Notes under the pieces: model-generated
What the model was told of the DNA's origin: nothing
The model's input: the letters and a program-made list of their open reading frames with translations, nothing else
The model's database searches: none
IMG/VR virus record: IMGVR_UViG_3300045988_182793
Coordinates: 1 to 64,000 of that record
Strand: one strand, 5' to 3'
DNA length: 64,000 nt
Origin: a virus
Program-made: the position numbers and the translations under genes
Part shown: piece after piece, positions 26,029 through 40,232 of the stretch
Position numbering within the stretch: the stretch's first letter is position 1
How the letters are laid out: every line of letters begins with the position of its first letter

Positions 26029-26029
26029 G

Positions 26030-26240: not shown

Positions 26241-26275
26241 CCTTGTACATCCGTGCGAATTAAATACAATTAAAG
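26240..26275 (+). promoter_or_regulatory. copy 8 of conserved promoter motif (TCCGTGCGAATTAAATACAAT)
   Basis: consensus match. Confidence 0.6.
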
Positions 26276-26319
26276 ATGTCGAAAGATAAAGCACAACACA
26301 CAAAAAAGGAAATTTCACT

Positions 26320-26640
26320 ATGAACACCAGTATTTTGAAACTCAAAGCCACTGTAATCCGCCCCAAAGACGATGATGAACTTGACGGCCTTGCCGCATCC
26401 ATCAGCTTTCCCGTCGAATGCGATGATGAAGCAATTGGCGAGGCTCTGGGCGACCATGACCTGATGGCCTATGTTGTCGGAGAGCTACACGACCTCGTTG
26501 TCCGAATGCGTCCCGAATGGCTGGATAATGAGGATACTAGCCTGACCATCAAGGCATTCCTGGACGAAGCTGAGTACCAGACGTTCAAGGGCCTTGTCGC
26601 GATGAAAGAAGACAGCTACACCTTTGTTATTGAGGGCTAA
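26320..26640 (+). CDS. hypothetical acidic protein (106 aa)
   Basis: ORF with RBS AAAGGAAA. Confidence 0.5.
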   Translation: MNTSILKLKATVIRPKDDDELDGLAASISFPVECDDEAIGEALGDHDLMAYVVGELHDLVVRMRPEWLDNEDTSLTIKAFLDEAEYQTFKGLVAMKEDSYTFVIEG

Positions 26641-26763
26641 ACACCACAGAGCAAAAAGCAAACCAAGCCTGCAGTAAAATGCGGGTAGGACTTTTTTGTT
26701 TGCGTAGCTGCATCCTTTTGTCCGCAGAAACCGTAGGTGCCAGGATGCGTAGCTGCCGATGTG

Positions 26764-26800
26764 TCTTGACCCGGCGTGCGAATCTCATACAATCAAATCT
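26764..26800 (+). promoter_or_regulatory. copy 9 of conserved promoter motif (GGCGTGCGAATCTCATACAAT), no obvious gene before next copy
   Basis: preceded by direct repeat GCGTAGCTGC x2 (26701-26750). Confidence 0.5.
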
Positions 26801-26869
26801 GTACGAAAGATACTATGCACACAATAGAATTCACACTAAGCTGCTCAGTGGCCTTATGGCTATTGGGTA

Positions 26870-26905
26870 GCTTTTTCTTTTGTGCGAACTGCGTACAATA
26901 AAAAT
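26870..26905 (+). promoter_or_regulatory. copy 10 of conserved promoter motif (TTTGTGCGAACTGCGTACAAT)
   Basis: consensus match. Confidence 0.6.
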
Positions 26906-26922
26906 CAGACGGAGGAACAACT

Positions 26923-27330
26923 ATGAAAAAATTTATTGGGACTGCTCTGGTGCTGTGCTGCCTGGCTCTACCTTTGGCTGGCTGTGAGGACGCAATCAGC
27001 ACTGTGACAAGTACCACAATGTCTGAACTCGAAGATATCCCGAACCAGATATTGGCCACACCGGAAAGTGCTGAGATGAAACCGGAATACAATTACATCC
27101 ATTTTCGTTACGACAACATCTGGACTGTATCTGCCCTCGTGAACTACGAAATCGTGGACAACGGCCAAAACATAAAATTTGAAATCAACGATAGTCGTTA
27201 TCGAGACAAGGTTTTTTATACCAGCATGTCGAATGTAGAGCTCGTATACCGAGACGATAGCGTTGATTATCGCACGGGCTATGCGGTTTATCCGGGGAAT
27301 GCCTCGAAATTTGGAAAAGGTGGTAAGTGA
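26923..27330 (+). CDS. small lipoprotein (MKKFIGTALVLCCLALPLAGC)
   Basis: signal peptide + lipobox. Confidence 0.6.
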   Translation: MKKFIGTALVLCCLALPLAGCEDAISTVTSTTMSELEDIPNQILATPESAEMKPEYNYIHFRYDNIWTVSALVNYEIVDNGQNIKFEINDSRYRDKVFYTSMSNVELVYRDDSVDYRTGYAVYPGNASKFGKGGK

Positions 27331-27331
27331 G

Positions 27332-27808
27332 ATGAGCATAAATTTTGTTGATGGCAATATTTTTTCACGACTGTCAACGAACAAGACGACATATATCTGC
27401 CAACAAGTGAATTGTAAAGGTGTAATGGGAGCTGGACTTGCCATGCAAATTTGCATCCAATGGCCGGTGGTATATCAGCGCTATCTGGAGTTTTGCTATG
27501 GAAACGACGGCAACAAGCTCGGTACTTATCAGGAGGTTCTGGTAGAACCGAAGCTGTATGTCGTGAATCTGTTCGGGCAGAATGGTTATAGCCGAGGTGA
27601 AAGGCAGACGAATTATGCTGCACTGGCGGCTGCGCTGTTCTCGTTTTTTAGAGACTGCGCTCAAAAGTATCAGGACGTAACTATCCGGTTGCCATATGGT
27701 TTAGGCTGCGGACTTGCCGGAGGTGACTGGAATACGGTTCTGGACATCATCAGCGATGCAGCAAAAGCCTGGAATCTGAATGTTGAGATTTGGGAACTCC
27801 AACAGTAA
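27332..27808 (+). CDS. Macro-domain (ADP-ribose binding/hydrolase)-like protein
   Basis: QQVNCKGVMGAGLAMQI resembles VNAAN..L.GGGV.GAI motif; later RLPYGLGCGLAGGDW. Confidence 0.55.
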   Translation: MSINFVDGNIFSRLSTNKTTYICQQVNCKGVMGAGLAMQICIQWPVVYQRYLEFCYGNDGNKLGTYQEVLVEPKLYVVNLFGQNGYSRGERQTNYAALAAALFSFFRDCAQKYQDVTIRLPYGLGCGLAGGDWNTVLDIISDAAKAWNLNVEIWELQQ

Positions 27809-27812
27809 TAGC

Positions 27813-27852
27813 AGAAAGACCCTTACCGAAAATCGGTAGGGGTCTTTCTTTT
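27813..27852 (+). terminator. rho-independent terminator
   Basis: AAAGACCCTTACCG..CGGTAGGGGTCTTT + T-run. Confidence 0.7.
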
Positions 27853-27965
27853 CTGTAGGGATGCAAATATGTACAGATTGCAAACAAATGACACCTGCCG
27901 TTGCAGAAAAAGCACGATAGTGGGATAATATTAGTAAAGAAACAACAACATCATCAGTAAAGTAA

Positions 27966-28955
27966 GTGAAAAAGCCTATGACAAACGCAGAACTAAAAGC
28001 AATCGTCCAGCGCGAGGAATACGATTTCCTGCACACCAACAAACACTTGGGGAGCAACATTTTATTCCTAACGCTTAGCGGCAGTCATGCCTACGGAACC
28101 AACGTCGAAGGCTCCGATATCGATATACGTGGCGTGGCAGGCTCACCCGAAATCTTAGGGTTTAACCGCTTCGAGCAGGCCATTGACAACCGGACAGATA
28201 CAGTCATCTACGCTGTGAACAAGTTCGTCGGCTTGCTTGCGCAGGGTAATCCCAGCATTATCGAACTTCTTGGCAATGACCCGGAGCTATATGTGAACAT
28301 GACGCCGGAAGGCCAAATGCTGCTTGACAATAGGGAACTGTTCTTGACTCGGCGCATTGCCTACAGCTATGGCGGCTTTGCGAACGACCAGCTCAGACGT
28401 TTGCAGATGGGACTCCTTCGTAATGGGGCCTCGCCGGAAGCATTCAAGAACAAATTCGAAAAGAGAAGCCTGGAACGGTCGATTACCGGATGGGGCAAGG
28501 ATGACATTTTTGAAATTTCCATCAGTGAGGATACAGATGAAGAAGGCAAACATCCGCTCCTGATTTCTGGCAGCTTGAACGATTATCCAGTCACCTCTCT
28601 AAAGTCGCTGCTAAAGAGTCTGACTACGACCATCGACCAGTATGAGCAGCCGCAGCATCCAAAAGCACAAAAAGATGCTGCCCACATCAACAAACACGCG
28701 ATGCACATTGTGCGGTTGTACTACACGGCGTTCGATATTCTGGAAAAAGGCGAGATTATCACTCGCCGAGACAAGGAACGCGAGGAACTGTTGGCGATTC
28801 GCAACGGCAAGTACCTGCGTGAAGACGGGTCGTACGCACCCGAATTCTTTGAGCTTGTTGATGCACTCGAAAAGAGATTTCAGTATGATGTGAAGAAGAC
28901 GATTGAAGAACTGTTGGTAGAAATCAATAAGTCGTATCTGCGACGCGTTTTTTGA
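27966..28955 (+). CDS. Pol-beta-superfamily nucleotidyltransferase (RlaP/DUF2204-like)
   Basis: GSHAYGTNVEGSDIDIRGV (GS...DxD) near N-terminus; LLAQGNPSIIELL. Confidence 0.55.
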   Translation: MKKPMTNAELKAIVQREEYDFLHTNKHLGSNILFLTLSGSHAYGTNVEGSDIDIRGVAGSPEILGFNRFEQAIDNRTDTVIYAVNKFVGLLAQGNPSIIELLGNDPELYVNMTPEGQMLLDNRELFLTRRIAYSYGGFANDQLRRLQMGLLRNGASPEAFKNKFEKRSLERSITGWGKDDIFEISISEDTDEEGKHPLLISGSLNDYPVTSLKSLLKSLTTTIDQYEQPQHPKAQKDAAHINKHAMHIVRLYYTAFDILEKGEIITRRDKEREELLAIRNGKYLREDGSYAPEFFELVDALEKRFQYDVKKTIEELLVEINKSYLRRVF

Positions 28956-29005
28956 CGCACTCCCACCCCTTACGGAGTGGGCTTTCCCGGCGCGGGGACT
29001 GTAAA

Positions 29006-29040
29006 ATAAAGCTTGCACATCTGTGCGAATCAGATATAAT
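29006..29040 (+). promoter_or_regulatory. copy 11 of conserved promoter motif (TTGCACATCTGTGCGAATCAGATATAAT)
   Basis: best consensus copy: TTGCAC-16-TATAAT. Confidence 0.65.
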
Positions 29041-29063
29041 AACCCTAATAAGATAAAAATTGT

Positions 29064-29110
29064 GCCCTGACGGCATCTGAATTGGATGCTGCCGGGGCAT
29101 TTTTGTTTGT
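29064..29110 (+). terminator. leader hairpin+T-run between promoter and UvrD-like gene
   Basis: 14-bp stem GCCCTGACGGCATC/GATGCTGCCGGGGC then ATTTTTGTTTG. Confidence 0.5.
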
Positions 29111-29126
29111 TAAGGAGAATTTGGCT

Positions 29127-31847
29127 ATGACACTGAACGACTTGTCAAGCGAACAGCAGGAATTCGTACATTTGGCATTGTCGGGCAAAAACGTATTGTG
29201 TGACGCCTGCATCGGCAGCGGAAAAACATCGACTATCAACGTACTCTGCGATGCATATCCACCAGAACGGCGTATTTTGTACTTGACCTACAACCGATTA
29301 CTCAAACTTGATGCCAAAGACAAAATCAAGAATGGCAATGTCCTGGTTCAGAACTATCATGGATTTGCAAGCCTGCTGCTGAACAAAAAGGGAATCCGGA
29401 ATTGCGGACAGGGCGAACAGCTTGCCATGGTATTGGAAAAGAAAATTCCGATTCCGCCGATTGATACTCTTATCATTGACGAGTATCAGGATATCAATGA
29501 CGAGATTGCAGAACTGCTCAAATATATCCGCTCTAAGAATCCGGGCCTTCAAATCGTCGCAGTGGGCGATATGAAGCAGAAAATCTACGATGATACAGCG
29601 CTGGATGTCTGGGAGTTCATGCAGGATTTTCTCGGCCGCCATGAACAGGTGGTTTTCACGAAATGCTTCCGTATTTCTCATGACTTGGCAGAACGACTCG
29701 GCAACATCTGGGGCAAGACCATCAACGGCGTAAATAGCTCCTGTATCGTGGAACAGATGTCGGTCGATGAAGTAACAGAGTTCCTGAATAAGCAGAACCC
29801 CAAAAATGTCCTTTGCCTGGGTGCTCGAATTGGAGCCATGACGAAGGTGCTCAACGACTTGGAGAATCGACCGGGGAACCTCTATGACAAGCATCATGTC
29901 TATGCAAGTATCGCAGACAATGACGGGAATAAAGCAGTAGCGCCCTCCTCGGATGTTGGTATCTTCACGACTTTTGACGGCAGCAAAGGTATGGAGCGGC
30001 CTATCTGCGTTGTGTTTGATTTCACGGAAGAATACTGGTCGTCTCGCACAAACAAACCGATGGCACGATATGAGATTCTTCGGAATCTGTTTTGTGTCGC
30101 AGCAAGCCGAGGAAAGCAGCGAATCATTTTCGTAAACTCAGACCATCCGTTGAGCGATAAATCTCTGATGACCCCAACTGAAACTCTTCGCGGATTTCCG
30201 CATCCGTTCGCATTCTCTGAAATGTTTGACCATAAATTCATCGAGGATGTAGATACCTGCTATAAGCTGTTGGAAGTCACACCGATTGAACGTAATGATA
30301 CCACGACCATTGATATCCAGACGGCAGATGCAATGATTGATTTGTCTCCCTGCATCAGTATCTACATGCAGGCAGGATTCTTTAATTCCTACGATATAGA
30401 TGACGCACTTGCGTATTATATGGACCTGCATAAAGACATGCAGTATTTGAAAATCAAGAAGGGCGCAACGGTCGAGGATAAGGTTCTACTGCTCACAGCA
30501 CTCGAAACGAATCAGTGCAGGTATGTAAAACAGGTCAAGCCTCCTTTTGTGAACGCAAAAGCCAAAATGTCGCTCAGTATGCGGCTTGGAACCGTGTTCA
30601 CTCCCGATGAATATGTTCAGGCACGCGGCGATATCGACATTCATACTAAGGACCATAAAGTAATTTATACCTCGGGTCTTGCGGATGTCGTAAAGAATAA
30701 TACCGTCTACTGCATCAAATTCATCAGCAGCCTGGCACATAAGCATTTTCTGCAGTGTGCGTGTTCCATGATGGCATTGGGGTTGCCGTATGGCGTTGTC
30801 TGGAACGTCAAAAGTAACCTGATGTACAGCGTAAAAATCAAGGATATAGACGCTCTGATTGACGCAATTACCAAGTGCATTACGAAACGGGTTTATGATA
30901 GCGCAGATGACTACACCTGCAGGAAAGGTTTTGTACAGGATACCGCGTCGATTATCGACCGATGGACTGACGACGGATATGCGGAAGAGCCCACCACTAT
31001 CACTTCCGGCGACGGTATTGCCATCATCAAGCAAGGAAGCCGCTATTTTGTGATGGACGGAGCACGTCGAAACACCCTGAACGATAATTTCGGGATGGGC
31101 TTTGCCGATGTAAAAGATGCTTGCCTTGCTTATGCAAAGAGTTGTGAACTCCAGAAAATCGTGGACCATGATTCTCCTTATTCCGAAGTCGAATTCTGGC
31201 TCGACCAGAACAAGGCGTTTGAGGAATACATGACGCAAGTAAGCCATGAAATCGAACAGCACAAGGAAGGACCGTATGCAAAGTATAAGTCTCTTGCTGC
31301 TCCCGCTGTCCGAAAGATGCTGGCCGAAAAGGGACTGACCATCATGTTCCCGGAAAAGGTCCTCATCAAGGTCTGGAAGATGCGCCGTGTCGAAGATGCC
31401 ATGTATCAGAAAATTGAAGAAGCAAAGAAGCAGAACAGCTCCAATGTACCGCTTGATGAGGCGTTCTTTGACTCTGAACTGGTGGATTCCGTTGAGGGAA
31501 GCATCGAAAGCGCCAAGGCAAAATCCAAGCCCAAAAAGGAATCCGCATTACCGTTTTCCAAGTACTGCGCAGATGAGAAGAAGAGCTATCGTGTCGTGAA
31601 AAGCGATGAACTCTCAAAGCCCAACCAGCCCCGTTATGTTGTGGTCGAGACCGCTACTGATAAGGTCCTGGACAATGCTAACGGATATGGCTACCTTTCC
31701 TATCAGGCTGCCTGGAAAGGCTATTCGTACAAGAGCAAGCATCATCTGGACGGCACGAAGAAACCGATAAGTAAGAGTGCAAAAGAGCAGGCAAAGAAAA
31801 AGGCGGCTTTCTTTTCAACTGACTCGGAGCAGCTCAGCTTTGGCTGA
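29127..31847 (+). CDS. UvrD/PcrA-like SF1 helicase (N-terminal ~400 aa) fused to ~500-aa unknown C-terminal region
   Basis: motif I CIGSGKTST, II IIDEYQD, III VGDMKQKIY, IV FTKCFR. Confidence 0.75.
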   Translation: MTLNDLSSEQQEFVHLALSGKNVLCDACIGSGKTSTINVLCDAYPPERRILYLTYNRLLKLDAKDKIKNGNVLVQNYHGFASLLLNKKGIRNCGQGEQLAMVLEKKIPIPPIDTLIIDEYQDINDEIAELLKYIRSKNPGLQIVAVGDMKQKIYDDTALDVWEFMQDFLGRHEQVVFTKCFRISHDLAERLGNIWGKTINGVNSSCIVEQMSVDEVTEFLNKQNPKNVLCLGARIGAMTKVLNDLENRPGNLYDKHHVYASIADNDGNKAVAPSSDVGIFTTFDGSKGMERPICVVFDFTEEYWSSRTNKPMARYEILRNLFCVAASRGKQRIIFVNSDHPLSDKSLMTPTETLRGFPHPFAFSEMFDHKFIEDVDTCYKLLEVTPIERNDTTTIDIQTADAMIDLSPCISIYMQAGFFNSYDIDDALAYYMDLHKDMQYLKIKKGATVEDKVLLLTALETNQCRYVKQVKPPFVNAKAKMSLSMRLGTVFTPDEYVQARGDIDIHTKDHKVIYTSGLADVVKNNTVYCIKFISSLAHKHFLQCACSMMALGLPYGVVWNVKSNLMYSVKIKDIDALIDAITKCITKRVYDSADDYTCRKGFVQDTASIIDRWTDDGYAEEPTTITSGDGIAIIKQGSRYFVMDGARRNTLNDNFGMGFADVKDACLAYAKSCELQKIVDHDSPYSEVEFWLDQNKAFEEYMTQVSHEIEQHKEGPYAKYKSLAAPAVRKMLAEKGLTIMFPEKVLIKVWKMRRVEDAMYQKIEEAKKQNSSNVPLDEAFFDSELVDSVEGSIESAKAKSKPKKESALPFSKYCADEKKSYRVVKSDELSKPNQPRYVVVETATDKVLDNANGYGYLSYQAAWKGYSYKSKHHLDGTKKPISKSAKEQAKKKAAFFSTDSEQLSFG

Positions 31848-31894
31848 TTCAGAAAATCAACAACAGATTTCACAATTAAAAGGAGGAGGAAATC

Positions 31895-32668
31895 ATGGCA
31901 GCCAAAAAGGATAAGATGATTCCGTCTGAGAAAGAACGGAAAAGAGCACTGAAATATGCGACCCCGGCAGGTACGGGTCGGATGTGGGTAACAATGGGAA
32001 TCGCCTTTATAATTATCGGCATTATCTTGCTGCTGATTCCAATTGGCCTTGTTATCTCGGAGGCATCAGCGCAGAGATACGACCCCGAAAGCATCCATAC
32101 AGCAACACTTGTATTCTATCTGCTTGGTGCATTTTTTGGTTTCTGCGGATGTTTATGCGTTATCTTTGGTAAGCTTGCCGTCAAAGCATTTGCGAAAATA
32201 CTGTGCAAGGGTGAAATTAACTATCCGGTAGCGGAATACAAAACACCTAAGAAACTGCTGCTTCAAGAGGCAGCAGCTATCAACCAGAGTCCGAATGCTC
32301 CATTGACAGCTTCCACATTCGGGAACTGGATTGATTTTGAAGCCGATTGGCAAAACTGCCTTTCCATTCATAATGGCATCTTGCAGAGTCATCAGATTTT
32401 CAAAAAACTGATTCTTGTACAAGACAATTTTACTTACAAAGAGCTGGACTACGAGAATAACTCGGAACTCGGCGTCGGAGTCAAAACATTCGCCGCAGGA
32501 AGCACAACGACCATCGGCAAAATGAAAGGCCACAAGCTCATTTATAATATCGGCATGAATCTTTCCAATGGCAAACTGGGAGTTAACAGCTATTCCATCG
32601 ATACATTGGACGTCACGAATGAAGTACATAAATGGTTAGCTGACCACGGATACACCCGCACAGACTAA
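31895..32668 (+). CDS. membrane protein (2 TM N-terminus, 257 aa)
   Basis: RBS AGGAGGAGGA; hydrophobic helices. Confidence 0.5.
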   Translation: MAAKKDKMIPSEKERKRALKYATPAGTGRMWVTMGIAFIIIGIILLLIPIGLVISEASAQRYDPESIHTATLVFYLLGAFFGFCGCLCVIFGKLAVKAFAKILCKGEINYPVAEYKTPKKLLLQEAAAINQSPNAPLTASTFGNWIDFEADWQNCLSIHNGILQSHQIFKKLILVQDNFTYKELDYENNSELGVGVKTFAAGSTTTIGKMKGHKLIYNIGMNLSNGKLGVNSYSIDTLDVTNEVHKWLADHGYTRTD

Positions 32669-32679
32669 GAAATAGCTTT

Positions 32680-32820
32680 GTTCGTTGTCGATACTTCCGG
32701 TTCAATGCGCGGAGAGCCTCTCAATGCACTGAAAACAACCATGATTAACACCATCCAGTATATCAATGACGACAACTATATCGGCATCCTCGATGAGTTG
32801 CTGGATATTCTTAACGATAA
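32680..32820 (+). pseudogene. remnant of vWA gene (110 bp ~88% identical to 10861-10970) with divergent tail
   Basis: direct comparison of gttcgttgtcgatacttccgg...tatcggcatc at both loci. Confidence 0.7.
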
Positions 32821-32884
32821 ATAATTGATTTTTACACCTCCGATGTTACGGCATCGGGGGTTTTGTTTTTGGGAGGATACGGAG

Positions 32885-33931
32885 ATGGCAAAGAACGATA
32901 ACCTGCATAAGGCAAAGGACGCAAAAAACGACGAGTTCTACACCAGAATCGAGGATGTCGCAGAGGAATTGCGGCACTACAAAAAGCATTTCGCAGGCAA
33001 GGTCGTATTCTGCAACTGTGATGACCCGACATGGTCTGCTTTCTGGCGGTATTTCCACCTGAACTTCGCCGAACTTGGTCTAAAGAAGCTGATTTCCACG
33101 CACTATGACCGCACCGAGCCCACCTACAAGATGGAGTATGAGGGTGGGGATGATAATGATGTGGAAGTCGGTGTAAAAACCCCGCTGGAAGGCAACGGCG
33201 ATTTCCGGAGCAAGGAATGCCTTGACTTGCTGGATGAGTGCGATATCGTGGTAACGAATCCGCCGTGGTCAATGTTCAGAGAATATGTCTCGCTCTTAGT
33301 GGAGCACAAAAAGCAGTTTGTTATCATTGGCAATAAGAACTCCATTACATACAAAGAATTTTTCCCGCTTTTGAAGGACAATCATGTTTGGATTGGCTAC
33401 ATGTCCCCGTCTGAATTCGATACGCCGTCTGGAATGACAAAGAAAGTCGCCGGTCTTGGGCGTTGGTTCACCAACCTCGACATCCAAAAGCGCCACGAAA
33501 AGCTGATTCTCTGGCAGCGGTACTATGACGATGACGGGAATCCTCTGCCGGATGCGGATGAGCGCTACCCCCACTACGATAATTACGACGCCATCAATGT
33601 GGACAGGGTTGCGGATATCCCGGTGGATTACAAGGGCGTTATGGGTGTGCCGATTACGTTCTTGGATAAGTATAATCCGAAAGAATTTGAAATTTTAGGC
33701 TATACAGGCGGTTTGGGATGGAATAGCCAAAACGATGTAAAAACCACAAAAGAATATTTGGAATGTAAGCAGCACAACCCAGACGGTAGTATTACAAGTG
33801 GGGGCAAAGTCAATACTGGCGCTGCATTGTGCTTTAGTGTAATTCCTGCACAAAGATACTATACGGCATCAAATTGCAGCGGGTATTTACTCAGAACATA
33901 CGGACGAATTCTTGTTTGCAAGACGCAATGA
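32885..33931 (+). CDS. EcoRI-family adenine-N6 DNA methyltransferase
   Basis: N-term MAKNDNLHKAKDAKNDEFYT parallels M.EcoRI N-terminus; motif IV VVTNPPWS. Confidence 0.8.
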   Translation: MAKNDNLHKAKDAKNDEFYTRIEDVAEELRHYKKHFAGKVVFCNCDDPTWSAFWRYFHLNFAELGLKKLISTHYDRTEPTYKMEYEGGDDNDVEVGVKTPLEGNGDFRSKECLDLLDECDIVVTNPPWSMFREYVSLLVEHKKQFVIIGNKNSITYKEFFPLLKDNHVWIGYMSPSEFDTPSGMTKKVAGLGRWFTNLDIQKRHEKLILWQRYYDDDGNPLPDADERYPHYDNYDAINVDRVADIPVDYKGVMGVPITFLDKYNPKEFEILGYTGGLGWNSQNDVKTTKEYLECKQHNPDGSITSGGKVNTGAALCFSVIPAQRYYTASNCSGYLLRTYGRILVCKTQ

Positions 33932-34755
33932 AAGGGAAAAATGGAATGGATATAAAATGGGAAATTGCCTTTTATTTAATTGAAGCAAAAAAGGCTGTCG
34001 ATTCTTTATGGTATATATCAAACCATGTCAGCGAATTATATGATGTCAGGCAATTATGCAACGATAGACGAAGTCAGTATTACATTAACACCTGTGCCGT
34101 CTTAGATAAAACTGTGTGTGATGGTAAAGGAAAGAAAAAGGAATTAACGCAAAACGACAATGTTATTGCGCACATCTATTACGAAAGAGATAAGCACTAC
34201 GCTCACAAAGATAGTGATTATAAACAAAACTATCCGTGGACAAATTTGGAACAAGAAGCGTTTGCATTACAAGAGGAATTGCGCCACATTTTAGAAAAAT
34301 GTAAGGATTATCTTCCACAAGTGCTTACACTCGACTTTGTATGTTATGACAGCGTCCAATATCGATATATCAATAAAATTGGCAAAAGTGATGAAGAAAA
34401 AATCAAAGAAGAAAAACATCCTTTTTATAACAATCCGTTCCAATTGAATGCAAAGCCGATAAGAAAGAAACCTATATATGATATTGAGGCTATTAAAAGT
34501 ATCCCTGATAATAAACATAATGAGTATTGTGTTGTCATAGAAAGCGGTTTGACGTTTGAAGAAGATTTACAAAATAGGCAAGATGCTTTAATCAAGTTGA
34601 ATATGCTGTGCGGCAAAAATCTTTGGTGCAGAAAGAATGAATCGATGTGGAATGAATGTCTTAGATTACGGGAATTAGGGATATTTGACGCCTTTGGAAG
34701 ACTAAATTGCAGAAGAATTATAGAAGAAATAGAGAAAGGAAACAACATCTTATGA
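33928..34755 (+). CDS. hypothetical protein, AT-rich, translationally coupled between MTase and DUF262-HNH
   Basis: ATGA overlaps at both ends (33928/33931 and 34752/34755); low GC. Confidence 0.5.
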   Translation: MKGKNGMDIKWEIAFYLIEAKKAVDSLWYISNHVSELYDVRQLCNDRRSQYYINTCAVLDKTVCDGKGKKKELTQNDNVIAHIYYERDKHYAHKDSDYKQNYPWTNLEQEAFALQEELRHILEKCKDYLPQVLTLDFVCYDSVQYRYINKIGKSDEEKIKEEKHPFYNNPFQLNAKPIRKKPIYDIEAIKSIPDNKHNEYCVVIESGLTFEEDLQNRQDALIKLNMLCGKNLWCRKNESMWNECLRLRELGIFDAFGRLNCRRIIEEIEKGNNIL

Positions 34756-35888
34756 AAATTACAGAAACCAAAATCAAGGTATCCGACCTCGTAGAGAACT
34801 ATTCGAACGATGGAGACGGCGGCGTATACGGTTACAACAATCGGCTCACGATTAGGCCGAGCTACCAAAGAAATTTCTGCTTCTCCGATAAACAGCGTGC
34901 AGCCGTCATTGATTCAGTGATGAACGGATTTCCATTGAACCTTATGTACTGGTCTAAGACCGGTCCGGATTCCTACGAGGTTCTCGATGGTCAGCAGCGG
35001 ACAATTTCCATTGCGCAGTATGTCAACAAAGACTACCCCGTCAAAATCAACGGCAATGACAAGTTCTTCCAGAACCTGACAGACGAGGAAAAGCGGACGA
35101 TACTGGACTACGAGTTGACCGTGAATATCTGTGAGGGCTCCGAAGCCGAGAAACTGGCATGGTTCAAGCGCATCAACATCGCTGGAGAAGTTCTGACTCC
35201 GCAAGAGCTGCTGAACGCTACCTATACAGGTCCGTGGCTGGCTGATGCAAAGAACTACTTATCAAAGCGCAACTGTGTGGCCGCGAAGATGGCTGATGGT
35301 TACTTGAAAGGGAACCCTATTCGGCAGGAGTTGCTGGAAAAGGCACTGGCGTGGATTGCTGACCGTGATGGTCTGGAATCCGGGCAGATGTACATGGCGG
35401 TTCACCAGCATGACGAGGACGCCAATGACCTCTGGCTTTACTTCCAGTCGGTAATCAACTGGGCAAAAATGCTGTTCCCGACTAAGCGGAAGGGAATTAC
35501 GGATGCACAGGCATGGGGACTGCTCTACAACCAATATCATTCAAAGCAGTACAATAGCAACGCTTTGGAAACGGACATTAAGAAACTCGTACTGGATGAT
35601 GATGTAACTAAGAAGGCAGGCATCATCCCGTTCATCCTCTCTGACCGTATTTGGCGTGATGAAAAGCACCTGTCCCTTCGTGCGTTTACTGAATCTCAGA
35701 AGCTTCGCGCCTATGAGCGGCAGGGTCACAAGTGCCCCTTGTGCGTTGCAAATGGCATCAACACCGAGTATGCCTTTGAGGATATGGAAGGTGACCACAT
35801 CATTCCTTGGAGCAAGGGCGGGCATACCACAGACAATAACCTGCAGATGCTGTGCAAGAAGTGCAATGCGGCAAAGTCGGATAAATAA
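34752..35888 (+). CDS. DUF262 (ParB-like DGQQR) + C-terminal HNH nuclease (GmrSD-like)
   Basis: LDGQQRTISIAQ; C-term GDHIIPWSKGGHTTDNNLQMLCKKCNAAK. Confidence 0.8.
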   Translation: MKITETKIKVSDLVENYSNDGDGGVYGYNNRLTIRPSYQRNFCFSDKQRAAVIDSVMNGFPLNLMYWSKTGPDSYEVLDGQQRTISIAQYVNKDYPVKINGNDKFFQNLTDEEKRTILDYELTVNICEGSEAEKLAWFKRINIAGEVLTPQELLNATYTGPWLADAKNYLSKRNCVAAKMADGYLKGNPIRQELLEKALAWIADRDGLESGQMYMAVHQHDEDANDLWLYFQSVINWAKMLFPTKRKGITDAQAWGLLYNQYHSKQYNSNALETDIKKLVLDDDVTKKAGIIPFILSDRIWRDEKHLSLRAFTESQKLRAYERQGHKCPLCVANGINTEYAFEDMEGDHIIPWSKGGHTTDNNLQMLCKKCNAAKSDK

Positions 35889-35900
35889 GGAGAAATTAAA

Positions 35901-36266
35901 ATGGATATTTTCGAGAAATTAGCAGAATTTAGTAATGAAACTTTTAGCGCATTGAAATGGATTTTTCTTTTCATAAGTTGCGTTACATTTTTCGCATTGC
36001 CCTTTAAGATGAAGCCTTCAAAAAAAGATGTATCAAAAGCAGTGACTTTTAGTAGTGCTGTTTCCTTCGCTGTTACAGCGTGTGGATTTGTGTACGCTGA
36101 CATTCTTGATATGGTATGGAAATTGATTGGTTGTAATGCTGGAATATTTGTAACCATTGTTGGAATACTGTTTGCAATTCTCGCGTTGTTTTCTGCGGTT
36201 GGCTTTGTATGCTCTTTTGAAGACATGGCAAGGTCATTTTATAATAGAATATACAAAAACAAATAA
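35901..36266 (+). CDS. small membrane protein (121 aa, AT-rich)
   Basis: 3 predicted TM helices. Confidence 0.45.
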   Translation: MDIFEKLAEFSNETFSALKWIFLFISCVTFFALPFKMKPSKKDVSKAVTFSSAVSFAVTACGFVYADILDMVWKLIGCNAGIFVTIVGILFAILALFSAVGFVCSFEDMARSFYNRIYKNK

Positions 36267-36335
36267 GGCGGCAAAATGCAGCGATTTTTGTTTGAAACCA
36301 ATGTATTGACTGAATAGTATCATTAAAATGGGGCT

Positions 36336-36440
36336 TGCGCAATTCTCAAAACATGCTATAATACAGACGTCACAACAAGTTCTAAACCTCCTATTGTAAT
36401 CAGTATCACACTGGCTGCGGTAGGAGGTTTTTTGTTTTGA
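36336..36440 (+). ncRNA. candidate small RNA: TTGCGC-17-TATAAT promoter then ~65-nt transcript ending in AACCTCCT..AGGAGGTT hairpin + T-run
   Basis: seen in sequence; no ORF. Confidence 0.35.
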
Positions 36441-36604
36441 TGGAAGGAGTAACAACAGATTGGTTTTTTGAATTCCGTGTAAAGCATGAGAGTGTAGTAT
36501 GGATGAATATGTCAAAAAACCTTTCGGTAACCTGGACATCAGAAGCCTCGACACTGGAAATGATATAGACATAAACCTGCGAACGTATAAAAAGGAATTG
36601 GAAA

Positions 36605-37261
36605 ATGAATAATTACGAAAAAGCCAAATCAAAATTAAATATCACAAAAGCAGCTAATAAAGAAATCGAACGTATCGCCGAAGAAAAGCAAGGTGATAAA
36701 AATAGAGTTTTAGCAGCAAAAGAAATGCTGACGTATTATCTCGGAGATATCAAACGGCTACTAAGGAAAGAAAAGCATTCTGCAGATGATGCACTACTAC
36801 TTATAATAAAAGCAAATATGTGTATGGATGCAATTAGATATTTGCTGAGTCTAAAACAAGGAAACGAATACTTAGGACTGCTAACAGAAAGTCAAAAAGC
36901 AAGTATAAAGCGATTCCGCTCATTGCGTAGCATTGCTACAGCCCACCCTTTTAACACATCGAGTGGAGGGGAGGAAAACTTTGGTAGAGGGGGTACTGAA
37001 TGGTTTGTCGATATTCGGCCTTATGGATGGTGCGACGACTTTTTATCTGAATCAAGTTATGGTTTTTGTGAAGACGAATCTTTTAGTTGTTCTGAAAAGC
37101 CGGATTTTGTCATGATAGTGTACAGCGCAAACAACGATTCTCGGCATAGAAGAAAAATATATATCTATAAAGATATTATTGAACCCCTTATAATGTCTGT
37201 CGAATTTCTAAATAAAGAAATCAAAAAGCAAAATCACGGCACCGTAACTCCTGACACATAA
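36605..37261 (+). CDS. hypothetical protein, AT-rich, possible HEPN-like Rx5H motif (RSIATAH)
   Basis: ORF; motif match is weak. Confidence 0.4.
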   Translation: MNNYEKAKSKLNITKAANKEIERIAEEKQGDKNRVLAAKEMLTYYLGDIKRLLRKEKHSADDALLLIIKANMCMDAIRYLLSLKQGNEYLGLLTESQKASIKRFRSLRSIATAHPFNTSSGGEENFGRGGTEWFVDIRPYGWCDDFLSESSYGFCEDESFSCSEKPDFVMIVYSANNDSRHRRKIYIYKDIIEPLIMSVEFLNKEIKKQNHGTVTPDT

Positions 37262-37511
37262 CCAGAACTATCGCGGTCTTCATCCCGGCACTCGATGTCG
37301 AGGTGGATGTCCAGCCTTCCAAATATATCCATCCAGAGCGTCTTCGTTCTCACAGAGGATTTTGGCAACTTAGATATTGACTGAGTTATTGATAATGATA
37401 ATTGCATATCAAGAAAATGAATGGTATAATGTAAATAATACAAACCGCCATCCCGCACCAAATTCAAATACCAACAACCAAAACAAATCTCATTACGAAA
37501 GGAGTCATACC

Positions 37512-37976
37512 ATGTCCACCCTCAAAAACGGCGAGTTCGGCATCGATTTGGACAAGGAGAAAATTCTCTGGACTGACCGCAAACGCCACACCATCTTTTC
37601 TCTGCCGCTGTCCTTTACAAAGTACACCCTGACTGAGACCAAACTCATCATCCAGCGTGGCTGCTTCAACCTGCGCGAGGATGAGATTCAGCTGTACCGT
37701 GTCCGGGACATCGCGTTCAAGCAGAACTTCTATGAGCGCCTTTGCCGTGTCGGCAGCATCCATCTCTGCTCCACGGATGCCATGACACCGGAAATCGATA
37801 TCCGTCGTATCAAGAACCCGCGCGATGTCAAGGAAGTGCTTTCTAAGACCATCGAGGCTTGCCGAAAAGCCAATGGTATCCGCACTTCGGAAATCATCGG
37901 GGACCATGGTCGCTTTCCCGAGCCTGACCCGCATGGTATGCCGCCTGAACCCTGCCACGAACATCCTCATGACTAA
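37512..37976 (+). CDS. hypothetical protein (bacterial PH-like?)
   Basis: extended -10 TGGTATAAT at ~37413. Confidence 0.45.
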   Translation: MSTLKNGEFGIDLDKEKILWTDRKRHTIFSLPLSFTKYTLTETKLIIQRGCFNLREDEIQLYRVRDIAFKQNFYERLCRVGSIHLCSTDAMTPEIDIRRIKNPRDVKEVLSKTIEACRKANGIRTSEIIGDHGRFPEPDPHGMPPEPCHEHPHD

Positions 37977-37980
37977 TACC

Positions 37981-38020
37981 AGCCCGTACAGATTCAGTTC
38001 TGTGCGGGCTATTTTTTTGT
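37981..38020 (+). terminator. rho-independent terminator
   Basis: AGCCCGTACAG...CTGTGCGGGCT + T8. Confidence 0.75.
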
Positions 38021-38379
38021 TTACAAAGAAATTTTTGGGTGGTGAGGCAGTTGACCAGCTATGCGAGCGGCTTAGAATTATAAGTGCAATAAGCAAACAC
38101 ACATCGACACAGTCAACAACCCCGCCAAAACCGGCTGAACCAGTATTATAAGACTGCCACCGGGCAACGGGTTGCCAAGCGTGTCAACAATGGGGATTTC
38201 CCGTACAATGTTTACGATGCCAACGGCGGTATCGTGAAACCCGAAACCAAGAAAACCAAGAAAGCTGGGTAATGCCATCAACTTGAGTCTTTGCAGCTGT
38301 ATGGATGTTGCAAAGCTCAGATATAATCCCGGAATTCTGATAATACGCATGGAAAATTGTTGCAAGGAGGACGAAAGCT

Positions 38380-38655
38380 ATGAATGAATTCAAAGCAAGG
38401 AGCACGCTGGGAAGCGAGGCTGTCCCGGTTTTCGACGATGACGGTGAGCTCACGGAATGGCTGCACCGGGACAACTATACTGTCGAGGAATTGGAACTGA
38501 TGAACTTTGTCGGCGATGAAAAGCCCGTCATCAAAAAGGATGGCGTGAAAATCATCCGGGATGGCACGGTCATTCGGAGGACCAACACTGAAACAAGAAA
38601 AACTGAATTTCTATTCATCCCGCGCATTGTCACCAGCGAACAGAAAACGGTGTGA
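38380..38655 (+). CDS. hypothetical protein (91 aa)
   Basis: RBS AAGGAGGA. Confidence 0.45.
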   Translation: MNEFKARSTLGSEAVPVFDDDGELTEWLHRDNYTVEELELMNFVGDEKPVIKKDGVKIIRDGTVIRRTNTETRKTEFLFIPRIVTSEQKTV

Positions 38656-38945
38656 GGTGCAACGTGGTCAAAATTTATGGGTCCAGTGACGACCTTGTCT
38701 GCCTGGATAATTCCAACTATGGGGTCGATGAAATTGGTTGCTTCGATGTCAAGGGAGTCCGGCTGTTCTTGGATGATGACACGATTTTGGTAGTGCGCTA
38801 TACGAACGGTATCTGGCGCATCGAAATCGAGCGAAAGGGTACTGCACCATATCAGCATGAGGTCTGTGCGGGCAATGATGAGGCCGATTACAGCGATATC
38901 TTTTGTACGGAATCCGACGTTATTGCGCACGAAATCATTCGATGA
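38652..38945 (+). CDS. hypothetical protein (97 aa)
   Basis: overlapping stop/start with upstream. Confidence 0.45.
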   Translation: MRCNVVKIYGSSDDLVCLDNSNYGVDEIGCFDVKGVRLFLDDDTILVVRYTNGIWRIEIERKGTAPYQHEVCAGNDEADYSDIFCTESDVIAHEIIR

Positions 38946-38959
38946 GGATTGGAGCAGCC

Positions 38960-39625
38960 ATGGCAAAAACTCTTCTGACTCAAAAAATAGAATCAGCGCT
39001 AAAGGTTTGGCATCCTGCCAACTATGGTGGATACCGGGTTGATTCGTTCCGTCAAGGCTTCGACGCTCTGGAAGTACCTGTCGAGTGCGGTTCGATAAAA
39101 TCCGGCCTTGTTGACTTCGTTCGGGTTCAAGAGTGCTTCACATCAGAAACAAAATGTGGGACCTGCAAACTCTCAATGTACAGGGATGAGGACAGAGACT
39201 TAGTTATGCCGTCCATCCGGCAGTGGATGCAGGAGGTATCATGCCCCAAAGATATCTCTGACTGGAATTTTCGAAACGAACCTTGTACGGAACGGTTCTG
39301 CAGGCTGTACAAAACGAAACATACATACATCATCGACACTGTCGTCACCTGCGTAGAAATTAAGGTTTCCGTGAGCGACTTTCACTCTGACCATGGCCAC
39401 AACTTTGTGGGGCACTGTAACTACTATGTGATGCCGTTAGCGCTATACAAGAAGGTCAAAGATGAGATTCCTGATGGTATAGGAGTTCTGCTATATTACA
39501 ACGGCGAAAATACATGCGGGATTCGCAAGAAAATCGAATGCAAGCCCCGCCAACTCTCGGAGAAAACCCAGAAATGGCTCATCATGTCAGTTGCTAAGCG
39601 ACTGACAAAAATGAGCAAAGCATAA
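38960..39625 (+). CDS. hypothetical protein with possible PD-(D/E)xK motif (IIDTVVTCVEIK)
   Basis: D...E.K spacing only. Confidence 0.4.
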   Translation: MAKTLLTQKIESALKVWHPANYGGYRVDSFRQGFDALEVPVECGSIKSGLVDFVRVQECFTSETKCGTCKLSMYRDEDRDLVMPSIRQWMQEVSCPKDISDWNFRNEPCTERFCRLYKTKHTYIIDTVVTCVEIKVSVSDFHSDHGHNFVGHCNYYVMPLALYKKVKDEIPDGIGVLLYYNGENTCGIRKKIECKPRQLSEKTQKWLIMSVAKRLTKMSKA

Positions 39626-39755
39626 ACAATTATTCTGCGAATATCACGATGCCATAAAAATATTCGCAGCGATAAAAATTTTCTAAAAAAGGAGAGAGAT
39701 ATAGTGAACTCTTAGACAAAAGCTAAATTATAAAGTGACAGCAAAGGAGAAGAAA

Positions 39756-40199
39756 ATGAAAAATGTTATGAAAAGTATGGCATTTATCATGGCAGCAATG
39801 CTTGCTACATCTTTTACTGCATTCGCAGACGATGCAGCAAAGAGCGCAACAACCACGGTAAATGCAAGCGTAAACGGAAACTACAGTATTACGGTTCCAG
39901 AACGTGTAACCTTGACCGGCTCTGGGGGAACGGGAGTTAAAACGGCATCGCTCGATGTTACCCTCAAGGGAGACATTCCCGAGGACAAGGTCGTTACCGT
40001 AACAACTGTTCCGCCCGTTATGACACGGTCCGGAGCAAAAGATGTGACGGCAACGGTTGAGACACCGAAAACTACATGGAGCCGAGATGACCTCTTGGCG
40101 AACTCGAAAGACGGCACAAAATCGGAATATACCGTTTCAGCTACACTCACACCAGGCGACTGGACCGGCACAGCAACATTTAGTTGTTCCATGTCGTAA
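39756..40199 (+). CDS. secreted protein, paralog of N-terminal domain of 40233-43013
   Basis: signal peptide; shared block VPE(R/N)V..TG..GTG.K.AS..V.LKGDIPE...TPGDW. Confidence 0.6.
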   Translation: MKNVMKSMAFIMAAMLATSFTAFADDAAKSATTTVNASVNGNYSITVPERVTLTGSGGTGVKTASLDVTLKGDIPEDKVVTVTTVPPVMTRSGAKDVTATVETPKTTWSRDDLLANSKDGTKSEYTVSATLTPGDWTGTATFSCSMS

Positions 40200-40232
40200 T
40201 GCTAGTCAAATACAATGAGAAGGAAAAAAACC

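What the first reader, a model, noticed from the sequence alone, without database searches (positions are those of the whole stretch)
32885..35888. Translationally coupled operon: EcoRI-family N6A methyltransferase - AT-rich unknown protein - DUF262(ParB-like)+HNH nuclease; candidate undescribed restriction-like system
The three ORFs overlap by ATGA at both junctions (33928/33931 and 34752/34755), implying co-expression. The MTase has the M.EcoRI-type N-terminus (KNDEFYT) and NPPW. The third protein joins a DGQQR DUF262 domain to a C-terminal HNH, an architecture known from GmrSD-like type IV enzymes. Here it is hard-wired to a methyltransferase and to an unclassifiable AT-rich 275-aa middle protein (low GC suggests separate origin). 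A type IV-like nuclease fused into an operon with its own MTase is not a standard R-M layout. Directly upstream is a remnant of the vWA gene, so this block was inserted by recombination.
Basis: partly seen in the sequence, partly recalled or inferred. Interest (0 to 1): 0.8.

Follow-up and report, generated by a model that had tools for sequence, protein, structure and literature searches.

The report
R-M operon with swappable guest gene
A widespread two-gene restriction-modification cassette (adenine methylase plus ParB/HNH nuclease) on a large gut mobile element has a foreign, AT-rich gene between its two genes; this gene belongs to a rare uncharacterised family, probably a HEPN-type abortive-infection gene, and sister elements carry at least ten other families of guest gene at the same spot, several with defence-type domains.

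Summary
There are three same-strand ORFs: M 32885-33931, X 33928-34755 and R 34752-35888. Both junctions overlap by ATGA, the motifs are as described, and X is AT-rich (GC 0.34, against 0.49 for the M core and R).

M (EcoRI_methylase, 1e-107) plus R (DUF262 + HNH) is not an odd layout. PADLOC's Type II REase model covers R end to end (5e-129). The M-R pair, with overlapping stop and start and no middle gene, sits on plasmids of several phyla.

X is a guest, not a subunit:
- In about 35 sister loci with R 87-96% identical, the M-R gap holds at least 11 unrelated gene families, including TIR, CAP12-TIR, HEPN and DUF4145.
- X's own family is rare (229 clusters in 1.8 billion proteins). Most of its members with an identifiable context lie inside type I R-M (hsdM-X-hsdS) or BREX operons.

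X has a conserved Rx5H motif, weak AbiU2 matches and HEPN toxins as its top real fold hits. It is therefore probably a HEPN RNase that acts as a second-line abortive-infection gene, in the manner of PrrC.

Methylase-HEPN-ParB/HNH operons and embedded defence genes are already described in the literature.

One puzzle is unresolved: M has two hypervariable regions, whereas R hardly varies.

The parts
32680..32825 (+). 3' remnant of a vWA gene (LFVVDTSGSM...LNDK*). It is context, not part of the system.
   Evidence: Sequence. It aligns to the end of the intact 439-aa gene in L002. The 5' part of the vWA gene is ORF 9686-11380 (Pfam VWA 2.7e-15).
32836..32871 (+). Terminator-like hairpin (11 pairs) plus T-run. 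It lies directly after the vWA stop codon and abuts the Shine-Dalgarno of M.
   Evidence: No sigma-70-like promoter was found between it and M.
32885..33931 (+). M: N6-adenine DNA methyltransferase of the M.EcoRI family, 348 aa. NPPW at 33257-33268.
   Evidence: Pfam EcoRI_methylase 1e-107 over aa 6-298. PADLOC MTase_II 6e-104. The conserved C-terminal Y.RILV.K is retained, so the protein is full length.
33395..33529 (+). Variable region 1 of M (about aa 171-215). Sister elements carry 5 types by leading residues, which fall into 3-4 unrelated alleles.
33701..33931 (+). Hypervariable C-terminal tail of M (aa about 273-348), GC 0.42. DNA similarity to sister element L025 stops here.
   Evidence: There are 12 tail types among 26 non-redundant sister loci.
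33928..34755 (+). X: guest gene, 275 aa (alternative start at 33946), GC 0.337. It belongs to a rare uncharacterised family. The N-terminal half is a HEPN-like helical domain; the C-terminal domain is of unknown function.
34186..34206 (+). Codons R87-D-K-H-Y-A-H93 of X: an Rx5H motif, the candidate HEPN catalytic motif.
   Evidence: H93, A92, D88 and D95 are invariant and R87 is present in 33 of 37 sequences in A1. R87, A92, H93 and D95 are at least 90% conserved in the more distant set A2.
34752..35888 (+). R: restriction endonuclease, 378 aa. It has an N-terminal DUF262/ParB-like NTPase-fold domain (DGQQR at 34986-35000), a helical linker, and a C-terminal zinc-ribbon HNH (nt 35733-35885).

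Best explanation
The locus is a two-gene restriction-modification cassette with a guest gene lodged between its two genes.

M is a gamma-class N6-adenine methyltransferase of the M.EcoRI family. It marks the DNA of the element and its host.

R is a ParB/DUF262-fold domain fused to a zinc-ribbon HNH nuclease. It cuts DNA that lacks that mark. This step is inferred. It rests on the invariant M-R pairing and on the fact that no intact R was seen without M. An NTP dependence of R is inferred by analogy with GmrSD, BrxU and SspE.

In this gut lineage the short M-R junction has become a recombination slot. Cassette exchange uses the conserved M core and R as flanks, and it swaps in unrelated single genes together with the 3' tail of M.

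In this window the guest is X, an AT-rich 275-aa protein of a rare family. Its other members with an identifiable context lie mostly inside type I R-M operons (hsdM-X-hsdS) and BREX operons.

X most likely has a HEPN-type RNase domain with an Rx5H motif. It would be co-transcribed with the R-M genes and would act as a second-line abortive-infection effector, as PrrC does inside EcoprrI. X's defence role, its RNase activity and its trigger are all inferred, not shown.
For: M and R identities:
-, including the full-length match of R to PADLOC REase_II (5e-129).

Canonical M-R pairs without a middle gene:
- Stop and start overlap by 1-4 nt on plasmids of four genera inspected, from three phyla.

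The slot is polymorphic:
- L022-L025 carry middle genes of 163-241 aa (depending on the start codon called) that are unrelated to X.
- In 30 IMG/VR loci with R 87-96% identical and an intact M upstream, the M-R gap is 242-1375 nt. Taken together with the window and L022-L025, the gaps hold at least 11 plus-strand gene families.
- These families include TIR (TIR_2 1.6e-21; PDC-S66 2.5e-40), CAP12/Pycsar-TIR (1.6e-22; PDC-S35 9e-24), HEPN (1e-4) and DUF4145 (2e-4).

Recombination breakpoints:
- DNA identity to L025 is 94% up to 33397.
- There is no similarity from 33700 to 34751.
- Similarity resumes exactly at the R start codon.

X in other defence operons:
- Of 37 clusters at 95% identity, 15 are in type I hsdM/hsdS operons, 3 in BREX (BrxC-PglX-...-X-...-PglZ), 1 next to a type III Res gene and Wadjet, and 4 in the type II context.
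- In the type I and type II operons X lies on the same strand as its flanking genes, with gaps of 3 nt or overlaps of 4-8 nt.

HEPN assignment of X:
- Conserved Rx5H motif.
- HEPN_AbiU2 is the only recurring Pfam hit (6 of 71 members, best E 0.001).

Literature:
- Guilt-by-embedding (bioRxiv 10.1101/2024.01.29.577857).

R and M occur together:
- Intact R is never seen without M upstream.
- R-less or M-less loci are decayed remnants (L014, L147-L152).
Against: No experiment supports any step.

The HEPN call is weak:
- The window protein itself hits no HEPN model.
- Foldseek found nothing below E 0.5.
- R87 is replaced by S or T in 4 of 37 homologues.

PADLOC v2 has no model that matches X, so it is not a catalogued defence candidate in that release.

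I could not name the REBASE enzyme behind the PADLOC REase_II model, so whether any member of the R family has been characterised biochemically is unverified.

M has two hypervariable regions, while R varies only by conservative substitutions. This fits poorly with a classical sequence-specific type IIP pair.

The promoter of the operon was not found. A strong terminator-like hairpin abuts M.
Confidence: 0.65

Rival explanations
1. M, X and R form a dedicated three-component restriction-like system. X would be an obligatory subunit, for example a specificity factor, regulator or adaptor for the DUF262-HNH nuclease.
For: - Tight packing, with ATGA at both junctions.
- The M-X-R arrangement is kept in relatives with X 85-87% identical, and once with X at 51% (L038).
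- The exact X protein is common: 319 blocks of the collection.
Against: - The same M-R pair works as a two-gene unit on plasmids of several phyla.
- Sister elements with R 87-96% identical carry unrelated genes, or none, in the slot.
- Most X homologues lie outside this context; those with an identifiable context are mostly in type I R-M or BREX operons.
- X, the M tail and M VR1 assort independently.
Confidence: 0.08
2. The M-R pair does not work as a classical type IIP system. R would be a modification-sensing nuclease with SspE-like or type I/III-like logic: it reads the presence or absence of M's m6A mark, or is licensed by M, and does not recognise a sequence itself. M could then change its target-recognition regions freely. 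The guest genes in the slot may be wired to that sensing.
For: - R is uniformly conserved: majority fraction at least 0.92 in every 15-aa bin except the last (0.79), and only conservative substitutions.
- M shows 5 VR1 types and 12 C-tail types among 26 non-redundant sister pairs.
- R is about 70% identical across hundreds of clusters, which is unusual for type II REases (my own knowledge).
- The closest structures are the modification-sensing BrxU and SspE.
- DUF262 is described as a sensor of modified DNA (PMC12065111).
Against: - It is not shown that VR1 and the C-tail are target-recognition elements. They may be tolerant loops, or diversity that hitch-hikes next to a recombination hotspot.
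- PADLOC files R under Type II REases.
- No biochemical data were found.
Confidence: 0.15
3. X is not a defence gene. It would be a counter-defence or other accessory gene of a phage-like element, or a selfish or neutral passenger that merely lands in a permissive intergenic site.
For: - Sister contigs are listed in IMG/VR as viral.
- The element carries an AcrVA2-like gene and a metallo-beta-lactamase gene with a faint Apyc1 (anti-Pycsar) mark.
- No defence model matches X.
- Some slots hold no intact ORF (L128-130, L133).
Against: - X homologues sit in the same orientation inside type I R-M and BREX operons, including on contigs from bacterial MAGs.
- The alternative guests include TIR, CAP12-TIR and HEPN effectors that match PADLOC defence candidates.
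- Embedded genes of this kind are mostly defence genes (bioRxiv 10.1101/2024.01.29.577857).
Confidence: 0.1

Closest known systems
PrrC embedded in the type Ic R-M system EcoprrI (hsdM-hsdS-prrC-hsdR). This is the model described in PMC3710099 and in bioRxiv 10.1101/2024.01.29.577857.
   Same: Both are HEPN-type genes nested in the same orientation inside a restriction-modification operon, and the proposed role is a second line of defence. Most X homologues with an identifiable context sit between hsdM and hsdS, in the manner of PrrC.
   Different: X has no ABC-ATPase domain and no detectable sequence similarity to PrrC. Here the host system is a two-gene type II pair. No interaction with the R-M proteins is shown.
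HEPN genes in operons with a ParB nuclease and a DNA methylase. Table 1 of Anantharaman et al. [quoted passage not shown]
   Same: The same three-part layout: methylase, HEPN protein and ParB(-HNH) nuclease.
   Different: X is not a detectable member of those HEPN families. It shows only weak AbiU2 matches, and only in 6 of 71 relatives. The polymorphism of the slot is not mentioned in the passages of that paper read here.
[quoted passage not shown]
   Same: The phenomenon and the logic are the same. Their HEC-08 HEPN protein also had SO_3166 (5YEP) as its structural match. X homologues are embedded in type I R-M and BREX, which are the host systems they surveyed.
   Different: Their embedded-gene survey, as described in its methods, covered Hma, BREX, DISARM and type I R-M, not type II pairs. 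X matches no model of PADLOC v2.0.0. Whether it is among their 145 newer candidates could not be checked.
GmrSD, BrxU and SspE: type IV or modification-sensing DUF262 nucleases.
   Different: R ends in a zinc-ribbon HNH (PF01844), not DUF1524. It is about 200 aa shorter. It was found with an M.EcoRI-family methyltransferase gene directly upstream wherever it is intact and the upstream DNA is present.
M.EcoRI.
   Same: The same Pfam family (PF13651, 1e-107), with motif IV NPPW.
   Different: The target sequence is unknown. There are two hypervariable regions. The partner nuclease is unrelated to R.EcoRI.

Membership tests
Type II restriction-modification system | An AdoMet-dependent DNA methyltransferase with the catalytic motif (D/N)PP(Y/F/W). 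| tested here: met
   EcoRI_methylase 1e-107 and NPPW at aa 125-128. PADLOC MTase_II 6e-104.
Type II restriction-modification system | A separate endonuclease gene that matches a Type II REase family. | tested here: met
   PADLOC REase_II PDLC03418, 5e-129, covering the full length of both protein and model. The enzyme behind the model could not be named.
Type II restriction-modification system | The M and R genes are linked consistently across taxa. | tested here: met
   Adjacent or overlapping M-R pairs on plasmids of Pseudomonadota, Bacillota and Actinomycetota. M lies upstream of every intact R whose upstream DNA is present.
Type II restriction-modification system | Sequence-specific cleavage at or near the site, blocked by the cognate methylation, with no NTP requirement. 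| not testable with these tools
   This needs biochemistry. The ParB-type NTPase fold of R, together with hypervariable M and near-invariant R, leaves it open.
GmrSD-family type IV restriction enzyme | An N-terminal DUF262 domain with the DGQQR motif. | tested here: met
   GmrSD_N 9e-19 and DGQQR at aa 79-83.
GmrSD-family type IV restriction enzyme | A C-terminal DUF1524 His-Me nuclease domain. | tested here: not met
   Pfam gives HNH, HNH_5 and HNH_4. There is no DUF1524 hit at E up to 0.1.
GmrSD-family type IV restriction enzyme | A stand-alone, modification-dependent enzyme with no cognate methyltransferase. | tested here: not met
   Always paired with an M.EcoRI-family gene. Dependence on modification was not testable.
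HEPN superfamily (protein X) | A conserved Rx4-6H motif. | tested here: met
   R87-x5-H93. H93 is present in 37 of 37 sequences and R87 in 33 of 37. Both are at least 90% conserved in distant set A2.
HEPN superfamily (protein X) | A significant profile match to a HEPN family. | tested here: inconclusive
   The window protein gives no hit. HEPN_AbiU2 is matched by 6 of 71 relatives at E 0.001-0.1, below Pfam significance. It is the only family matched in both member sets.
HEPN superfamily (protein X) | The HEPN helical-bundle fold. | tested here: inconclusive
HEPN superfamily (protein X) | RNase activity that depends on the motif. | not testable with these tools
   This needs an experiment.
Defence gene embedded in a defence operon (guilt by embedding) | Nested between the genes of a known defence system, on the same strand. 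| tested here: met
   Between M and R here. Between hsdM and hsdS, and inside BREX, elsewhere.
Defence gene embedded in a defence operon (guilt by embedding) | The family recurs in several different host systems. | tested here: met
   Of 37 clusters: 15 in type I, 4 in type II, 3 in BREX, and 1 next to a type III Res gene and Wadjet.
Defence gene embedded in a defence operon (guilt by embedding) | Anti-phage activity. | not testable with these tools
   This needs plaque assays.
PrrC/RloC anticodon nucleases | An N-terminal ABC-type ATPase fused to a C-terminal HEPN domain. | tested here: not met
   X is 275 aa with no ATPase domain in Pfam or in the model.

The most novel reading that the evidence does not exclude
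The M.EcoRI-family/DUF262-HNH pairs may be a widespread, unrecognised class of modification-sensing restriction systems, wrongly filed as type II.

In this reading, specificity lies only in M. M's two hypervariable regions shuffle like the target-recognition domains of type I or type III systems. The near-invariant ParB-fold NTPase-HNH protein R reads the m6A self-mark, or is licensed by M, as SspE reads phosphorothioate.

The M-R junction would then be a dedicated docking slot. Interchangeable suicide effectors (HEPN, TIR, CAP12-TIR, membrane proteins and X) are plugged in there, so that they fire when the R-M layer is disabled.
Probability: 0.15. Interest if true: 0.75.

Novelty: new member of a known kind. 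Interest (0 to 1): 0.4.

Why it matters
- X becomes a well-founded candidate anti-phage gene family. It is rare, has no Pfam model, matches nothing in PADLOC v2, and is embedded in three kinds of DNA-modification defence. It also offers a testable catalytic motif, R87/H93.
- The embedded-defence-gene phenomenon, surveyed so far for Hma, BREX, DISARM and type I R-M, also applies to a simple two-gene type II pair. There the M-R junction behaves as a hotspot with at least 11 alternative guests. Several of these are unknown proteins, which makes them cheap leads for new defence genes.
- The contrast between a mosaic M and a near-invariant R raises the question of how this very abundant but apparently unstudied R family finds its targets.

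Tried and rejected
Searches that led nowhere:
- Megablast of the locus against the phage and plasmid collections gave no match.
- A PDB sequence search with X, and with profile A2, gave nothing meaningful.
- A PDB sequence search with R gave nothing.
- Foldseek of the X model against PDB gave no significant hit. The afdb50 library was unavailable.
- The genome-contig scan with R returned only 3 loci.
- Literature searches for a named enzyme with the DUF262+HNH+EcoRI-methylase layout found none (terms DUF262/HNH, PF13651, DUF262/EcoRI, 'type II restriction', ParB/HNH/REBASE, 'DUF262-HNH').
- A profile search with A2, intended to bridge X to an annotated HEPN family, returned only 'hypothetical' proteins without Pfam domains.
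- A PHROGs scan of ten large window ORFs found no phage structural genes. Whether the element is a phage, phage-plasmid or plasmid stays open.

Ideas considered and rejected:
- X as a specificity subunit or C-protein-like regulator. The slot is polymorphic, X occurs in other systems, and no HTH is predicted.
- R as a type IV enzyme. It is always paired with a methylase, and it has no DUF1524 domain.
- The M gene as truncated by the insertion. The conserved C-terminal strand Y.RILV.K is retained.
- Co-variation between R residues and M allele types. Only conservative R substitutions were found, so this was uninformative.
Full report
**1. The observation**

- M runs from 32885 to 33931 (348 aa). 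A strong Shine-Dalgarno, GGGAGGA, lies 7 nt upstream.
- X runs from 33928 to 34755 (275 aa).
- R runs from 34752 to 35888 (378 aa).

Both junctions read ATGA, so stop and start overlap by 4 nt. KNDEFYT, NPPW (nt 33257-33268), DGQQR (nt 34986-35000) and a CxxC...DH...N...CxxC HNH are all present.

Pfam gives EcoRI_methylase at 1e-107 for M, and GmrSD_N at 9e-19 plus HNH at 3e-13 for R. It gives nothing for X. X also has no significant hit in NCBIfam or PHROGs.

X is AT-rich. Its GC is 0.337, against 0.485 for the M core and 0.495 for R. The dip begins near 33700, inside the 3' end of M.

There is one caveat on the M/X junction. X has an in-frame ATG at 33946 with AAAGGGA 8 nt upstream. Most homologues start at that position, and residues 1-6 are disordered in the model. 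The M/X overlap may therefore not be the start actually used. Either way the genes are tightly packed, and no terminator-like site lies between M and R on the + strand.

**2. M and R are a known, widespread pair**

PADLOC matches M to MTase_II (6e-104). It matches R to a Type II REase model over the whole length of both protein and model (PDLC03418, 5e-129, aa 1-378 against positions 1-372 of 372).

A tblastn of R against plasmids finds 121 records. Among the better hits, an 'adenine-specific methyltransferase EcoRI family protein' lies directly upstream of a 'DUF262 domain-containing protein'.

I inspected Aeromonas, Mammaliicoccus, Ligilactobacillus and Gordonia plasmids. In each, M and R overlap by 1-4 nt with no gene between them.

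The R family is very large and well conserved. At least 7986 proteins score E<1e-10, and hundreds of 378-aa clusters are about 70% identical.

R nevertheless fails two defining features of the GmrSD family. Its nuclease is PF01844 HNH, not DUF1524. It is also never found alone: every intact R whose upstream DNA is present has M upstream. R-less or M-less loci are decayed remnants:
- In L014, M residues 1-157 are fused to X residues 126-205 and then run out of frame.
- L147-L152 keep only C-terminal pieces of R.

A nuclease that is always paired with a methylase must be blocked by that methylation, not activated by it. This is an inference.

I could not find which REBASE enzyme underlies the PADLOC model, nor any paper on this architecture.

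**3. X is a guest in a polymorphic slot**

The window is 100% identical, over 25928-42755, to a 165-kb gut-metagenome scaffold (L001). The exact X protein is listed in 319 blocks of the collection.

Close relatives of R carry a different gene between M and R:
- L022, L023/L024 and L025 carry middle genes of 163-241 aa, depending on the start codon called.
- L025 shares the window's backbone. DNA identity is 94% up to 33397, there is no similarity from about 33700 to 34751, and similarity resumes exactly at the R start codon.

A scan of IMG/VR with R returned 38 loci on contigs of 9-389 kb. The 31 loci with a complete R gene have R 89-96% identical.

In the 30 of these loci that also have an intact M upstream, the interval from the M stop to the R start is 242-1375 nt. 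In the canonical plasmid pairs it is -4 to -1 nt.

Taken together with the window and L022-L025, the ORFs in these gaps fall into at least 11 plus-strand families by BLASTP. Representatives include:
- a TIR protein (TIR_2 1.6e-21; PADLOC PDC-S66 2.5e-40);
- a CAP12/Pycsar-type TIR protein (1.6e-22; PDC-S35 9e-24);
- a PF05168 HEPN protein (1e-4);
- a zinc-ribbon-DUF4145 protein (2e-4);
- a family with an Rx4H motif and a weak AbiV match;
- two families with an N-terminal membrane helix;
- several proteins that match nothing.

Some slots hold only broken ORFs (L123, L128-L130, L132).

**4. X's own family**

Only 229 clusters reach E<=1e-3 among 1.84 billion representatives. All hits are 'hypothetical', without Pfam domains. 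The few named ones come from Clostridia and Peptococcaceae MAGs.

I collected about 100 loci that carry the family. I called ORFs myself and classified the neighbours.

Dereplicated at 95% identity, there are 37 clusters:
- 15 lie between a type I hsdM and hsdS. The downstream gene is Methylase_S at 1e-31. Gaps are 3 nt, or overlaps of 4-8 nt.
- 3 lie inside BREX operons (BrxC, PglX, then X, then PglZ).
- 1 follows a type III Res gene and precedes Wadjet JetA.
- 4 are in the M.EcoRI/DUF262-HNH context. One of these is more distant (L038: X 51%, M 55%, R 70% identical).
- The rest are in unclassified contexts.

One family member is fused to a Methylase_S domain.

X is therefore a mobile accessory gene of DNA-modification defence operons, not a subunit of this one.

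**5. What X probably is**

Alignment A1 shows invariant D88, A92, H93 and D95, and R87 in 33 of 37 sequences (RDKHYAHKD). This is an Rx5H motif with an acidic residue after the arginine, as is typical of HEPN. R87, A92, H93 and D95 stay at least 90% conserved in the more distant set A2.

HEPN_AbiU2 is the only Pfam family that appears in both member sets. It is matched by 4 of 37 and 2 of 34 members, with best E-values of 0.003 and 0.001. These values are below significance.

The AF2 model is confident (pLDDT 90, pTM 0.88). It shows an N-terminal helical domain and a C-terminal alpha/beta domain.

I rate the HEPN assignment at about 55%. The C-terminal domain is unassigned.

**6. Mechanism proposed**

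Shown by comparison:
- M and R form a conserved pair.
- X and its alternatives are interchangeable inserts.
- Exchange involves the 3' tail of M and stops at the R start codon.

Inferred:
- M methylates adenine in an unknown motif.
- R cuts DNA that lacks that mark.
- X is co-transcribed and acts as a backup abortive-infection RNase.

The logic follows PrrC inside EcoprrI, and HEPN-R-M combinations more generally. [quoted passage not shown]

It also follows the 'guilt by embedding' work of Payne et al. (bioRxiv 10.1101/2024.01.29.577857). They surveyed Hma, BREX, DISARM and type I R-M systems. Their survey methods do not list type II pairs.

**7. An unresolved point**

I compared 30 close sister loci.
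- R is uniformly conserved: the majority fraction is at least 0.92 in every 15-aa bin except the last (0.79).
- M residues 1-135 are at least 0.90 conserved.
- M has two hypervariable regions: about aa 136-215, and aa 272 to the end.

Among 26 non-redundant M/R pairs there are 5 VR1 types and 12 unrelated C-tails of 40-110 aa. All tails end in the conserved Y.RILI.K. VR1, the tail and the guest gene assort independently. R's few variable columns are conservative changes.

These regions lie where a gamma-class methyltransferase has its target-recognition domain (my own knowledge of Malone's classification). If they set specificity, a constant R cannot be a classical sequence-specific partner. 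The system would then work more like type I or III systems, or like SspE.

If instead they are tolerant loops, or diversity hitch-hiking next to a hotspot, the pair is ordinary. I could not decide between these readings.

**8. Surroundings**

The vWA remnant at 32680-32825 is real. In L002 an intact 439-aa gene, whose 3' end is the window's remnant, abuts M. In the window, 21.7 kb (10969-32680) lies between the 5' part of the vWA gene (ORF 9686-11380) and the remnant. A repeat of about 109 bp sits at 10861-10969 and at 32680-32788.

The variable material is therefore upstream of the R-M block. Other sister elements have further variants there (type I-C Cas genes plus TnpB, or a deletion).

**9. 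Verdict**

The locus is an R-M pair of a known, abundant kind, carrying a new member of a known kind of passenger. The added value is a polymorphic slot in a type II operon and an open question about how R is targeted. Interest is 0.4.

Noticed in passing
window 9686-11380, 10861-10969 and 32680-32825: A vWA gene is split. Its 5' part (Pfam VWA) and a 146-nt 3' remnant are separated by 21.7 kb that is absent from sister element L002. A repeat of about 109 bp lies at both ends. The intervening segment is a variable cargo region: other sister elements have type I-C Cas genes plus TnpB, or a deletion, there.
   Followed up: partly
window 32885-33931, compared with L025 and L115-L146: The methyltransferase is a mosaic. 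VR1 (about aa 136-215; 5 types by leading residues) and the C-tail (aa 272 to the end; 12 unrelated alleles) assort independently of each other and of the guest gene. The nuclease R changes only by conservative substitutions.
   Followed up: partly
window 35901-36266 and 36605-37261: Two more AT-rich ORFs (GC 0.34 and 0.36) follow R directly. One is a 121-aa multi-pass membrane protein with a strong Shine-Dalgarno. The other is a 218-aa protein containing RSIATAH, another Rx5H-like motif. Neither has a Pfam or PADLOC hit. They may be further accessory cargo.
   Followed up: no
window 32836-32871: A strong terminator-like hairpin (11 pairs, followed by a T-run) ends about 10 nt before the Shine-Dalgarno of M. 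No sigma-70-like promoter lies between them. How the operon is transcribed is unclear.
   Followed up: no
L014 5001-5939: A decayed derivative of the operon: M residues 1-157 are fused in frame to X residues about 126-205, followed by out-of-frame sequence. No R gene is present. It sits at the end of a row of three other DNA methyltransferase genes.
   Followed up: partly
L147-L152: Sister elements keep only C-terminal fragments of R (the last 44-157 codons) with no M upstream. The cassette has evidently been lost repeatedly.
   Followed up: no
L049, L060 and L079 (BREX loci): In BREX operons, X homologues are flanked by conserved unknown ORFs of about 250 aa and about 295-350 aa, between PglX and PglZ. 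The embedded unit there may have several genes, or the 250-aa ORF may be a split C-terminus of PglX.
   Followed up: no
window about 17850-18797, 20708-22903, 27966-28955, 29127-31847 and 43497-44657: The neighbourhood is rich in defence- or counter-defence-like genes:
- an AcrVA2-like protein (from precomputed Pfam on L005);
- a 731-aa DEAD/SNF2 helicase that matches the helicase part of PADLOC mREase_IV (4e-40);
- an RlaP nucleotidyltransferase;
- a 906-aa UvrD-like protein with GajB-like hits;
- a metallo-beta-lactamase protein (LmuA/RTasMBL-like, with a faint Apyc1 mark).
   Followed up: partly
L127 and L145, 3246-4004: One alternative guest family (250-252 aa) begins MSLIIHTIVPEGIVVCADTRTT. 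By eye this looks like an Ntn/proteasome-type hydrolase N-terminus. It has no Pfam or PADLOC hit.
   Followed up: no
window 14990-16387 and 47842-48957: A 465-aa HNH endonuclease (phrog_119, 1.5e-51) and a TnpB/IS605-type transposase-like ORF (phrog_506, 6e-32). None of the ten large ORFs scanned matched a phage structural family. The nature of the element, which IMG/VR lists as viral, is not settled.
   Followed up: partly
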